Below are positions 38,653-39,441 of a stretch of 64,000 nucleotides of DNA, piece by piece. Under the pieces are notes generated by a model that was given only the letters and a program-made list of their open reading frames with translations, did not search any database and was not told where the DNA came from. The DNA is taken from IMG/VR virus record IMGVR_UViG_3300046787_000508, positions 128,001 to 192,000 of that record; one strand, 5' to 3'. The position numbers and the translations under genes are program-made. Every line of letters starts with the position of its first letter. Positions within the stretch are counted from its first letter, which is position 1. The DNA comes from a virus (lineage: Duplodnaviria > Caudoviricetes).

Positions 38653-39441
38653 GTGGCTATGTGTTATGTTACTTCTAAACTTTTAATTGGCTAAAAACAT
38701 ACATACACTCTTTCCACTTTTTAAAAATTATTGCGGCTATGTGAGATTCCAAAAGGATAACCATTAACCACATTTACTTGAGACGGGATGTTTCCGTAAT
38801 GTGGTCTTAGATTAGGTGAAAGTACGGGAACAAAGGTCTTACTTCTAACATACAAATTAAGATAACACGTTAGACACACTTTTTCCGCAAAACTTATAAA
38901 CGGCTATACATATTCTTACTTCTATCCAAACTTTTACTTTGACAATAGATTTGTGATTTCCGTTTTTTATTACGTTCTTTGAAAAAATATTTGGCTATAG
39001 ATTGTGTTACTTCTATATGGTTAATCTTGGTTCGAATCCAAGTCATACCTGTAACAGGGTAAGATTTTTACACAACTAATCTCCAAATAAATTATATTTT
39101 AATGGCTATGTGGGCGTGAATTGGTATAATATTTACATATCAACCACGGACTGGTTACTTCTACATCATCTGCGGGGAACTCAGCTTCGCCGCAACCATA
39201 ACAATTAACCAGCACAGTTTCCATTAAAAACTTATATCGGCTATGAATCGAGTTACTTCTAAAAACTATCAATAATGAAAACTCACTCATCCAATTTCCG
39301 ATTAATTTAAAATGAGGGTGGTAGCTCAGTTGGTAGAGCACGTATTCACTGGTTTAATTACCGTTTATATGGCTATATTCACAGTTACTTCTATTAGGCT
39401 GTTAACCTCGTGGTCGTGAGTTCGAATCTCACCCACCCTCC
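38653..39441 (+). ncRNA. Array of seven GGCTAT...TTACTTCTA structured RNAs
   Basis: Motif pair repeated 7 times; six units have their own closing stems; the seventh sits inside a tRNA-Asn-like body. Confidence 0.75.

What the first reader, a model, noticed from the sequence alone, without database searches (positions are those of the whole stretch)
39314..39441. tRNA-Asn-like gene with a 53-nt motif-bearing insertion in the anticodon stem and an 8-bp acceptor
Seen in sequence: removing 39343-39395 restores cgagg-ctGTTaa-cctcg between normal D (gctc-agttggta-gagc) and T (gtgag-ttcgaat-ctcac) arms. The acceptor is gagggtgg/ccaccctc, 8 bp. The insert carries the array motif GGCTAT...TTACTTCTA. 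The position (between 28 and 29) and size do not fit a group I or II intron or a canonical 37/38 intron. Inference: either a non-canonical spliced tRNA or a tRNA mimic with a grafted protein-binding site; a normal tRNA-Asn already exists at 34452.
Basis: partly seen in the sequence, partly recalled or inferred. Interest (0 to 1): 0.7.

Follow-up and report, generated by a model that had tools for sequence, protein, structure and literature searches.

The report
tRNA body carrying Y-RNA-like handle
A giant-phage gene that looks like tRNA-Asn carries, inside its anticodon stem, a rearranged copy of the conserved "handle" shared by six neighbouring small RNAs next to a Ro60-shaped protein gene. 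It is therefore most likely not a spliced tRNA but a tRNA-shaped member of a Ro/Y-RNA-like particle that I could not find described.

Summary
Rfam's tRNA model matches 39315-39440 (45.3 bits) with 53 extra bases (39343-39395) between positions 28 and 29, and ARAGORN misses it.

The insert is not an intron of any known type. It is a circularly permuted copy of the roughly 65-nt "handle" shared by the six free-standing RNA units at 38652-39302. That handle has two covarying helices plus CUAY, UUACUUCUA and UUUCC.
- Free units pair with sequence downstream: 58 of 58 have at least 10 of 11 pairs.
- tRNA-embedded copies pair with sequence upstream through a capped P1: 12 of 15 have at least 9 of 10 pairs, against 3-4% in controls.

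In 13 distinct relatives the acceptor, T arm, anticodon stem and handle helices all covary. Three insertion topologies exist. The discriminator base varies, and some anticodon loops are broken.

The array always follows a 690-aa protein. Its model combines a TerD-like domain with a helical part whose best whole-chain matches are three Ro60 structures (Z 8.2-9.5). Handle RNAs, some with YrlA-like tRNA modules, also flank this protein's homologues in Xanthomonas, Ruegeria and Rhodococcus phages.

Best reading: an unspliced tRNA-scaffolded Y-like RNA. Expression and protein binding are untested. This scan has reported the same RNA-protein system on other DNA; the tRNA-embedded permuted handle appeared in none of the notes I could see, though two reports overlapping this stretch were withheld.

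The parts
36556..38628 (+). 690-aa protein (phrog_33734), the proposed protein partner: N-terminal helical solenoid plus a TerD-like beta-sandwich (residues about 474-639)
   Evidence: AF2 model pLDDT 85.5. TerD matches at Z 13.5 and 12.3, then three Ro60 structures at Z 9.5, 9.5 and 8.2 with 287-316 residues aligned, with the next rows at Z 6.6 or lower. No Pfam or PDB sequence match. It lies directly upstream of the array in every related locus that reaches that far.
38652..38718 (+). Array unit 1, a free-standing handle RNA with a short payload
   Evidence: Model R1 74.5 bits; P1 4/5 and P2 6/6 pairs.
38733..38889 (+). Array unit 2, a handle with an insertion of about 95 nt replacing the UU internal loop of P2
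   Evidence: GUG...GUC pairs with GAC-A-CAC, and P1 is UGCGG/CCGCA (read). The insertion is conserved in relatives. R1 gives a partial hit of 19.7 bits.
38899..38964 (+). Array unit 3, whose payload hairpin has a CUUUUAC loop
   Evidence: R1 67.1 bits; pairs counted.
38990..39087 (+). Array unit 4, whose payload is a T arm (39024-39040) plus a 7-bp acceptor-like stem capped by a loop
   Evidence: R1 44.5 bits. The T arm and capped stem covary in L013, L014, L015 and L029.
39101..39225 (+). Array unit 5, a handle with a long insertion inside P2
   Evidence: GUG...UGG pairs with CCA-G-CAC, and P1 is AAUGG/CCAUU (read). R1 19.4 bits.
39236..39302 (+). Array unit 6, the last free-standing handle RNA
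   Evidence: R1 72.0 bits.
39314..39342 (+). tRNA-like RNA, 5' part: optional -1 G (39314), acceptor 5' strand (39315-39321), U8 A9, D arm (39324-39339), A26, C27 G28
   Evidence: Rfam tRNA alignment. The acceptor covaries in 5 of 7 pairs and the D arm is invariant in 13 sequences.
39343..39395 (+). 53-nt insertion, a circularly permuted handle. In order: linker 39343-48; P2b' CUG 39349-51; G; P2a' UUU 39353-55; AA; UUA 39358-60; P1' CCGU 39361-64; loop UUAU; P1 AUGG 39369-72; CUAU 39373-76; P2a AUU 39377-79; CA; P2b CAG 39382-84; UUACUUCUA 39385-93; UU
   Evidence: Across 13 relatives P2 is 88.5% paired with double changes in 4 of 6 pairs, and P1 is 96% paired. An upstream partner scores at least 9/10 in 12 of 15 embedded copies, against 3% of free units and 4% of shuffles. 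The window copy is among the weaker ones, by my count 8/10 because P2a forms only 1 of 3 pairs.
39396..39440 (+). tRNA-like RNA, 3' part: AGG, loop CUGUUAA (GUU), CCU, CG, variable loop UGGUC, T arm 39416-39432, acceptor 3' strand 39433-39439, position 73 = C39440. No CCA is encoded.
   Evidence: The inner anticodon-stem pair covaries (G-C, C-G, A-U) and the T stem covaries in 4 of 5 pairs.
39478..39924 (+). 148-aa protein (phrog_2574) directly downstream of the array; a role in the system is not shown
   Evidence: It is always the next gene after the array, in some loci after an inserted endonuclease-like ORF. The helical model (pLDDT 91) has no convincing PDB match. The family is large, with 838 clusters.

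Best explanation
39315-39440 encodes a chimeric non-coding RNA, not an intron-bearing tRNA. It has a complete tRNA body derived from the phage's tRNA-Asn type: acceptor stem, D arm, variable loop, T arm, and here also an intact GUU anticodon hairpin. Branching off its anticodon stem is a circularly permuted copy of the roughly 65-nt handle that defines the six free-standing RNAs upstream.

In the free units the handle's outer helix P1 is formed by the RNA ends, and the variable payload hangs on the far end of helix P2. In this gene P1 is closed by a tetraloop and the tRNA body takes the payload position, so the same three-dimensional module is kept. That much is shown by comparative analysis.

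The following steps are inferred.
1. The handle is the binding site of the 690-aa Ro60-shaped/TerD protein encoded just upstream, as Y RNA stems bind Ro60.
2. The tRNA body makes the RNA a substrate for RNase P, 3' trimming and CCA addition. This would give it defined, nuclease-resistant ends and cut it from the downstream mRNA.
3. The body presents a tRNA-Asn look-alike that either tethers the protein to tRNA-handling or tRNA-attacking enzymes or acts as bait for them. The phage carries a full tRNA set, tmRNA and SmpB, so a role in tRNA damage control would fit.
For: The tRNA fold is real. Rfam scores it 45.3 bits. In 13 distinct relatives 93.9% of cells pair, against 40-54% when partners are slid, and 17 of 30 pairs carry double changes. 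The acceptor, T stem, anticodon stem, P1 and P2 are all supported.

The handle is a real structure. In 43 aligned free units 96.2% of cells pair, against 38-50% slid, and 9 of 11 pairs carry compensatory changes. Without any selection, 58 of 58 free units have at least 10/11 pairs, against 19% of shuffles. On average 86% of the model's pairs appear in the minimum-energy fold.

The handle is permuted in the tRNA copies. Embedded copies have no downstream partner (0 of 10 reach 10/11). They do have an upstream one with the canonical spacing: 12 of 15 score at least 9/10, against 3% of 110 free units and 4% of shuffles.

The same handle sits at 28/29, at 29/30, or in place of the anticodon loop in different relatives. 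The window's 126 nt are identical in L011 and L034, although the 148-aa protein is only 80% identical there.

Evidence for the partner protein:
- The order 690-aa gene, array, 148-aa gene, metallophosphoesterase gene (40382-41134) is kept in all related loci.
- After the TerD matches, the best whole-chain structural matches of the 690-aa model are three Ro60 structures: phage phiLo, Xenopus and Deinococcus (Z 9.5, 9.5, 8.2).
- Model R1 finds handle RNAs in the non-coding gaps next to homologues of this protein in Xanthomonas phage XacN1 (45.1 bits), Ruegeria phage RpAliso (30.6 bits), Rhodococcus phage Weasels2 (28, 26.8 and 22.5 bits) and a gut phage.
- Those gaps also hold sub-threshold YrlA-like tRNA modules: 42.3 and 34.7 bits in RpAliso, 26.4 bits in Weasels2.

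Bacterial and phage Y RNAs lie next to Ro60 genes and include a tRNA-like domain that RNase P and the CCA-adding enzyme accept (PMC4201824; PMC12135203). Engineered RNAs placed in the anticodon arm of a tRNA scaffold are processed and stabilised in E. coli (PMC3753655).
Against: Binding of any RNA to the 690-aa protein is not shown.

The Ro60 likeness is structural only. Z 8.2-9.5 is below the level the tool itself calls safe for helical repeats. There is no TROVE match by Pfam or by a profile against PDB sequences. The same whole-protein fold also occurs in bacterial RING/TerD families of unknown function.

The window's own handle copy is imperfect, with P2a forming 1 of 3 pairs. Model R1 scores it only 13.7 bits. 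Energy-based folding places the proposed structure 4.5-18 kcal/mol above the minimum in the tRNA-likes.

The 13-15 sequences come from one phage clade, so relatedness inflates the counts. The loop CUGUUAA is invariant in all Asn-type relatives, which a mere scaffold would not require. A competing local hairpin with its own compensatory change exists in the L013 to L015 group.
Confidence: 0.6

Rival explanations
1. It is an intron-bearing tRNA-Asn. The 53-nt element is removed by an unknown endonuclease and ligase, or by self-cleavage of the handle followed by ligation, giving a second decoding tRNA-Asn.
For: Removing 39343-39395 restores a perfect 5-bp stem and the loop CUGUUAA. That loop is invariant in the Asn-type relatives, and the inner stem pair covaries. 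The joined sequence is closest to the phage's own tRNA-Asn, at 73% identity with all loops identical. A metallophosphoesterase gene lies two genes downstream.
Against: At 53 nt, with no Rfam intron or ribozyme hit, it cannot be a group I or group II intron. I see no bulge-helix-bulge at the junctions. The junction position varies among relatives (28/29, 29/30, in-loop). In types B and C the rejoined loops would carry C or U at position 37, or C at position 33. The discriminator base is C, A or G in different relatives. The same element exists six times as free-standing RNAs that interrupt nothing. A normal tRNA-Asn is already present. No RtcB, Rnl2 or splicing endonuclease was found in the contig.
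Confidence: 0.07
2. It is a dead tRNA-Asn copy, hit by recombination with, or insertion of, a piece of the neighbouring repeat array, and has no function of its own.
For: A functional tRNA-Asn exists elsewhere in the window. About half of the related arrays lack the tRNA-like gene. The window's P2a helix is poor. ARAGORN rejects the gene.
Against: Compensatory changes keep the acceptor, T, anticodon and handle helices in 13 distinct sequences. Three different architectures all keep a full handle and a full tRNA body. The sequence is 126/126 identical between phages whose flanking proteins are 80-88% identical.
Confidence: 0.06
3. Its main role is in cis. The tRNA-shaped element at the end of the array is a processing signal: RNase P and RNase Z cuts separate the small RNAs from the mRNA of the 148-aa gene, or set that mRNA's 5' end. 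The handle would be incidental.
For: It is always the last unit, 51-132 nt before the start codon of the 148-aa gene, with no terminator between. An intact elbow (G18 G19, T loop, G15:C48) suits RNase P and RNase Z.
Against: A processing signal would not need a conserved, covarying handle or a conserved anticodon hairpin. Arrays without the tRNA-like gene precede the same gene with the same A/C-rich leader. This role is compatible with the best explanation rather than opposed to it.
Confidence: 0.12
4. The repeated motif acts at the DNA level, as promoters, iterons or protein-binding sites, and happens to lie inside a tRNA gene.
For: The motif has two conserved boxes at fixed 8-bp spacing with AT-rich DNA upstream of each copy.
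Against: Helices with many compensatory changes flank the boxes, which DNA sites do not need. Two units carry insertions of about 42 and 95 nt between the boxes. Sigma-70-like sites are no more frequent than in shuffles.
Confidence: 0.02

Closest known systems
Bacterial and phage Y RNAs of the YrlA type with Ro60/Rsr (Rfam RF02553; Chen et al. 2014, PMC4201824; Thermus phage phiLo Ro60 with Yrl1/Yrl2, PMC12135203)
   Same: Several small RNAs are encoded in tandem next to, and on the same strand as, a large ring-type protein gene. Each RNA has a stem with conserved unpaired bases plus a variable module. At least one RNA per locus carries a tRNA-like domain with T- and D-arm features. The system occurs in large phages among tRNA genes.
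   Different: The protein has no TROVE or vWA domain detectable by sequence and carries a TerD-like domain instead. The handle has CUAY, UUACUUCUA and UUUCC, not GNCGAA. In YrlA the tRNA-like module lies inside the stem and its acceptor is capped. Here the topology is inverted: the tRNA has free acceptor ends and the capped handle lies inside the anticodon arm. Rfam YrlA does not match in the window.
Engineered 'tRNA scaffold' RNAs (Ponchon and Dardel; PMC3753655)
   Same: An acceptor stem, D arm and T arm are kept, and a foreign structured RNA, for example a protein-binding hairpin, is placed in the anticodon arm. The chimera is processed like a tRNA and protected from nucleases.
   Different: Those are man-made, whereas this is a natural, conserved gene. 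Here the anticodon hairpin is also retained as a third branch.
tmRNA
   Same: It is a tRNA-like acceptor/T-arm module with a large functional insertion where the anticodon arm would be. Circularly permuted forms exist in nature, and the phage encodes its own tmRNA (43073-43482) and SmpB.
   Different: There is no mRNA-like reading frame and there are no pseudoknots. A full D arm and an anticodon hairpin are present. The RNA is 126 nt, not about 350, and there is no tmRNA match at this site.
Intron-containing tRNA genes (bacterial group I introns in anticodon loops; archaeal bulge-helix-bulge introns at non-canonical positions)
   Same: An insertion interrupts the anticodon arm, and removing it restores a normal cloverleaf.
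   Different: The insertion is too small and has no group I core. It has no bulge-helix-bulge motif, and no splicing enzymes were found. The inserted element is a member of a free-standing RNA family.

Membership tests
Elongator tRNA (tRNA-Asn) | Cloverleaf with 7-bp acceptor, D arm with G18 G19, T arm with the UUCGAAU-type loop, and a Levitt pair | tested here: met
   Rfam RF00005 scores 45.3 bits against a gathering score of 29. The helices covary in 13 relatives.
Elongator tRNA (tRNA-Asn) | Uninterrupted 5-bp anticodon stem with a 7-nt loop | tested here: not met
   53 nt lie between positions 28 and 29. ARAGORN does not call the gene. In types B and C the loop itself is opened.
Elongator tRNA (tRNA-Asn) | Conserved identity elements, in particular a constant discriminator base | tested here: not met
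   Position 73 is C, A or G among the 13 relatives and usually pairs with position -1.
tRNA with group I intron | Intron of about 200 nt or more with the P1-P9 core, inserted in the anticodon loop | tested here: not met
   The insert is 53 nt and lies in the stem. No intron family matched in Rfam at E up to 1.
tRNA with an archaeal-type (bulge-helix-bulge) intron | Two 3-nt bulges separated by a 4-bp helix at the exon-intron junctions, plus a splicing endonuclease | tested here: not met
   Reading the junction sequences, I could draw no such pairing. PF01974 is absent from the contig, which is estimated 60% complete.
YrlA / Y RNA (RF02553) | Match to the family's covariance model | tested here: not met
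   No YrlA hit in the window at gathering score, or at E up to 10 in 38600-39320. Only sub-threshold hits were found in the arrays of distant phages: 26.4, 34.7 and 42.3 bits against a gathering score of 69.
YrlA / Y RNA (RF02553) | GNCGAA(N)G motif near the 5' end, the proposed Ro60 contact | tested here: not met
   The conserved bases of the handle are GG-CUAY, UUACUUCUA and UUUCC.
YrlA / Y RNA (RF02553) | Encoded within a few kb of a Ro60 (TROVE) gene on the same strand | tested here: inconclusive
   The neighbouring 690-aa protein has no TROVE match by sequence. After the TerD matches, its best whole-chain structural matches are three Ro60 structures at Z 8.2-9.5.
YrlA / Y RNA (RF02553) | tRNA-like module with T and D arms | tested here: met
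   A full tRNA body is present, but with inverted topology: free acceptor ends and the handle in the anticodon arm.
Handle-RNA family of this array (model R1, built here) | P1 and P2 helices around CUAY, UUACUUCUA and nnUUU-CC in the canonical order | tested here: not met
   R1 gives only 13.7 bits, E 0.82, at 39366-39439. No downstream partner strands exist.
Handle-RNA family of this array (model R1, built here) | The same elements present in circularly permuted order with the canonical spacings | tested here: met
   12 of 15 embedded copies score at least 9/10, against 3-4% in controls. P2 and P1 covary. The window copy scores 8/10 by my count.
Handle-RNA family of this array (model R1, built here) | Binding to the adjacent 690-aa protein | not testable with these tools
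   The only evidence is gene neighbourhood across distant phages.

The most novel reading that the evidence does not exclude
The RNA is a working adaptor or bait rather than a passive scaffold. In this reading it is a matured, CCA-tailed and perhaps chargeable tRNA-Asn look-alike that carries the docking site for a Ro60-like protein on its anticodon stem. It would thereby bring that protein to whatever binds GUN-anticodon tRNAs, such as anticodon nucleases of host defence, AsnRS, the queuosine-inserting enzyme or the ribosome. Alternatively it would draw such nucleases away from the phage's real tRNAs. A conformational switch between the handle and the competing local hairpin would gate exposure of the anticodon.
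Probability: 0.15. Interest if true: 0.85.

Novelty: new variant of a known kind. Interest (0 to 1): 0.62.

Why it matters
If the reading holds, nature built the "tRNA scaffold" that RNA engineers use: a protein-binding RNA module grafted into the anticodon arm of a complete tRNA. This mirrors the known YrlA Y RNAs, where the tRNA mimic sits inside the protein-binding stem.

It also gives a clean handle on an RNA-protein system that I could not find in Rfam or in the literature searched: a Ro60-shaped TerD protein with arrays of small RNAs. That system recurs in large phages of Proteobacteria, Actinobacteria and this freshwater clade, always among tRNA genes, tmRNA and tRNA-maturation genes. 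The permutation marks which parts of the handle must stay together in space, and it identifies the payload position as the functional business end.

For phage biology it suggests a further layer of tRNA protection or tRNA-based counter-defence in phages that carry complete tRNA sets. For annotation it shows that tRNA-like hits with large "introns" in phages should not be read as spliced tRNAs by default.

Tried and rejected
- **Database look-ups.** blastn of 38000-41000 against GenBank phages gave no match. Rfam at permissive thresholds gave no family for the free units.
- **Promoter idea.** Sigma-70-like sites are no more frequent than in shuffles, and the covariation argues for RNA.
- **148-aa downstream protein as the RNA partner.** Its confident helical model has no PDB match by Foldseek, and the best VIA Z is 7.4. 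It belongs to a very large phage family. Nothing links it to RNA, so I dropped it as the prime candidate.
- **690-aa protein as a sequence-level Ro60.** Pfam at E up to 10 gave nothing, a profile search against PDB sequences gave nothing, and the protein-atlas feature search was uninformative. Only the structural comparison points to Ro60.
- **Splicing and repair enzymes in the contig.** RtcB, Rnl2-type ligase, tRNA-intron endonuclease, TROVE, CCA-adding enzyme and TGT were all absent from the 203 kb, which is 60% complete.
- **Energy-based folding of the tRNA-like RNAs.** It does not recover the permuted handle, so the model rests on comparison only.
- **Payloads as stable anticodon-arm mimics.** Most payload hairpins fold at 0 to -1.5 kcal/mol. 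Several 7-nt loops have the form CU-NNN-A, which is suggestive but not established.
- **Exact-pattern scan of IMG/VR.** Most hits were single chance matches. Only loci with several matches belong to the family.
- **First pattern tries.** One failed on a gap limit and one on my miscount of the spacer.
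Full report
**Setting.** The window is part of a 202,894-bp IMG/VR virus contig estimated to be 60% complete. It has 33% G+C. ARAGORN tRNA genes and Rfam 26 tRNA matches. There is also a tmRNA (43073-43482) and SmpB (43519-43956). The finding lies in an 850-nt non-coding stretch (38629-39477) between a 690-aa ORF and a 148-aa ORF.

**The observation.** Rfam's tRNA model matches 39315-39440 at 45.3 bits with 66 nt of the anticodon region left unaligned, where the model expects 13. 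ARAGORN does not report it. Reading the sequence gives:
- a 7-bp acceptor;
- a D arm, variable loop and T loop identical to those of the phage's tRNA-Asn at 34452;
- a 53-nt insertion (39343-39395) between positions 28 and 29. Removing it restores a 5-bp stem and the loop CUGUUAA.

The insert holds GGCTAT-N8-TTACTTCTA. This pattern occurs five times in the window against none expected. Two further copies have long insertions between the boxes. All copies lie in this one intergenic region, and none lies elsewhere in the contig.

**What the repeated motif is.** Using the downstream 148-aa protein as a probe, I fetched 29 related viral loci and 44 metagenome loci. All that reach far enough keep the order 690-aa gene, array, 148-aa gene, metallophosphoesterase gene. 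Lining up the units showed a third conserved box, UUUCC, and two helices:
- P1 pairs the three bases before GG, plus GG, with CC plus the three bases after it.
- P2 pairs the N8 stretch, as 3 bp + UU + 3 bp, with a 3 + A + 3 segment exactly five bases before CC.

In 43 aligned units 96.2% of cells pair, against 38-50% when partners are slid, and 9 of 11 pairs show compensatory changes. Those units were chosen partly for pairing, so I repeated the count on every unit found from the 5' boxes alone. All 58 distinct free units reach at least 10 of 11 pairs, against 19% of shuffled downstream sequences. The pairs are also largely those of the minimum-energy fold, 86% on average.

Each free unit is therefore a structured RNA of about 65 nt or more. 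It consists of a constant handle (P1, CUAY, P2, UUACUUCUA ... A ... nnUUU) and a variable payload between UUACUUCUA and the returning strand of P2. Rfam has no family for it. In the window, units 2 and 5 carry long insertions inside P2. The payload of unit 4 is a T arm plus a 7-bp acceptor-like stem closed by a loop, and both covary in relatives.

**What the insertion in the tRNA is.** The copies inside tRNA-like genes have no downstream partner strands: 0 of 10 reach 10/11, which is the level of shuffles. The missing half lies upstream of GGCUAY, in this order:
- P2b', one base, P2a', two bases, UUU or UUA;
- a 4-nt P1' and a short loop;
- the 4-nt P1 ending in GG, then CUAY, P2a, two bases, P2b and UUACUUCUA.

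All elements and spacings of the handle are present, but P1 is capped by a loop and P2 opens towards the tRNA. This is a circular permutation.

Scored blindly, 12 of 15 distinct embedded copies reach at least 9 of 10 pairs. Only 3% of 110 free units and 4% of shuffled upstream sequences do so.

In an alignment of 13 distinct tRNA-like genes, P2 is 88.5% paired with double changes in 4 of 6 pairs, for example CUG/CAG, CUU/AAG, CUC/GGG, UAU/AUA and AUA/UGU. P1 is 96% paired. The acceptor, anticodon-stem and T-stem pairs covary too. Overall 93.9% of cells pair, against 40-54% slid.

The window's own copy is one of the weaker ones: P1 4/4, P2b 3/3, P2a 1/3.

**Three architectures occur.**
- Type A: the handle branches off the stem at 28/29 (at 29/30 in L167), and a GUU hairpin is kept; in L153 it is GUA. 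Members are the window, L011, L013, L014, L015, L029, L157, L167 and L153.
- Type B: a 5-bp anticodon stem is present, and its loop is opened by the handle. Members are L016, L017, L022 and L169.
- Type C: like type B, with a longer P1 loop. The only member is L012.

About half of the related arrays have no tRNA-like member. Where present, it is always the last unit, 51-132 nt before the 148-aa gene.

**Why it is probably not spliced.**
- The element is far too small for a group I or group II intron and matches no ribozyme or intron family.
- I could draw no bulge-helix-bulge at the junctions.
- The junction position differs between relatives.
- Rejoined loops in types B and C would carry C or U at position 37, or C at position 33.
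- Position 73 varies (C, A, G) and mostly pairs with position -1 (10 of 13), which is unlike a conserved discriminator.
- A standard tRNA-Asn is present.
- The same element stands free six times next door.
- No RtcB, Rnl2-type ligase or splicing endonuclease was found in the contig.

Against this, the ASL is clearly under selection in type A, and no RNA data were available. I therefore leave splicing at about 7%.

**The probable partner.** The 690-aa protein has no Pfam or PDB sequence match. Its AF2 model (pLDDT 85.5) has a TerD-like beta-sandwich at residues 474-639: Foldseek E values are 7e-5 to 6e-3, and VIA gives Z 13.5 and 12.3. After the TerD matches, the best whole-chain matches are three Ro60 structures:
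- Thermus phage phiLo, Z 9.5;
- Xenopus, Z 9.5 with 316 residues aligned;
- Deinococcus Rsr, Z 8.2.

The next rows fall to Z 6.6 or lower with about 95 residues aligned. The rmsd of 5-6.5 Å is in the range reported among true Ro60 orthologues (PMC12135203). This is suggestive, not proof. The tool warns about helical repeats, and the whole fold also occurs in bacterial RING/TerD proteins.

**Independent support from gene neighbourhood.** tblastn finds homologues of the 690-aa protein in 12 GenBank phage records. Model R1, built only from this clade, finds handle RNAs in the non-coding gaps touching those genes:
- Xanthomonas phage XacN1: 45.1, 23.9 and 19.1 bits;
- Ruegeria phage RpAliso: 30.6 bits;
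- Rhodococcus phage Weasels2: 28, 26.8 and 22.5 bits;
- a gut phage: 18.9 bits.

In Weasels2 one unit's payload is a T arm, capped acceptor and D arm that Rfam scores as YrlA at 26.4 bits. RpAliso has two such hits at 42.3 and 34.7 bits. All three are below the gathering score of 69. These loci also hold tRNAs, tmRNA and tRNA nucleotidyltransferase genes.

Y RNAs are defined by exactly this kind of neighbourhood with Ro60. In bacteria they include a tRNA-like domain accepted by RNase P and the CCA-adding enzyme (PMC4201824). A jumbo-phage survey noted TROVE proteins with tRNA-like partners, and separately stand-alone TerD genes, but did not connect them (PMC7824862).

Earlier follow-ups of this scan reached the same Ro/Y-like reading for this protein-RNA pair on at least 13 other genomes.

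**How it most likely works.**
- Shown: the gene encodes, on the + strand, a tRNA fold and a complete permuted handle, and both are under structural selection.
- Inferred: the handle binds the 690-aa protein.
- Inferred: the tRNA body supplies RNase P and 3'-end processing, CCA addition and nuclease resistance, as engineered tRNA scaffolds do (PMC3753655). It also presents a tRNA-Asn look-alike.
- Open: whether that look-alike tethers the protein to tRNA-binding factors, as Y RNA tethers Ro60 to PNPase, or serves as bait.
- Speculative: all tRNA-likes keep Y-N-G-U-(A/U) next to the stem, which is the GUN anticodon signature. From my own knowledge, that signature marks queuosine tRNAs and the targets of colicin-E5-type nucleases.

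**Unexplained.** In the L013 to L015 group a local hairpin (CUNAG, UUACUU, CUN'AG) shows its own compensatory change. It competes with P2b and with pairs 29-30. The window copy can instead pair 39381-39386 with 39397-39402, which would hide the anticodon. A switch is possible but untested.

**Verdict.** The "tRNA mimic with grafted binding site" reading is supported and refined to a circularly permuted handle. The spliced-tRNA reading is unlikely. The object is a new topological variant within a Ro/Y-RNA-like system that I could not find described in Rfam or in the papers searched.

Noticed in passing
window 38990-39087 (unit 4): The payload is a T arm (39024-39040) followed by a 7-bp acceptor-like stem closed by a loop. 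This is a capped tRNA top half, like the tRNA module of YrlA but without a D arm. Both helices covary in L013, L014, L015 and L029.
   Followed up: partly
window 38669-38944; L200:2440-2511 and 2752-2821: Payload sequences are conserved between this clade and Xanthomonas phage XacN1. One is a hairpin with the loop CUUUUAA, as in tRNA-Lys; another is an AUUUGGYGAAAA segment resembling a D loop. Several orthologous payload loops have the form CU-NNN-A with a variable middle triplet. Predicted stabilities are near zero.
   Followed up: partly
L013, L014, L015, L029 and L157 tRNA-like genes; window 39381-39402: A local hairpin that competes with the handle and with anticodon-stem pairs 29-30 shows a double compensatory change. 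The otherwise invariant last A of UUACUUCUA becomes U. This could be a conformational switch.
   Followed up: no
L204 (Ruegeria phage RpAliso) 881-4042: A permuted tmRNA (129.5 bits), two sub-threshold YrlA-like hits and a handle RNA all lie in the gap before the homologue of the 690-aa protein. A tRNA nucleotidyltransferase gene and two tRNA-Tyr genes follow.
   Followed up: partly
L195:1236-1550: In a more distant relative, a class II-like tRNA 5' part and a T arm with acceptor 3' part are separated by about 250 nt. This may be a tRNA gene with a large intron.
   Followed up: no
L013, L028, L031, L032 and L195, between the array and the 148-aa gene: Extra ORFs with GIY-YIG or HNH-like features are inserted between the RNA array and the 148-aa gene in some relatives. 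They look like homing-endonuclease insertions.
   Followed up: no
window 38615-38640: The stop codon of the 690-aa gene lies in the loop of a 9-bp hairpin just before unit 1. On the + strand no run of U follows it, so the array may be co-transcribed with the protein gene.
   Followed up: no
window 39441-39477 and the same place in relatives: The leader of the 148-aa gene is a conserved A/C-rich, purine-poor stretch (AACAACAAUU-AAAACAACAA) without a Shine-Dalgarno sequence.
   Followed up: no
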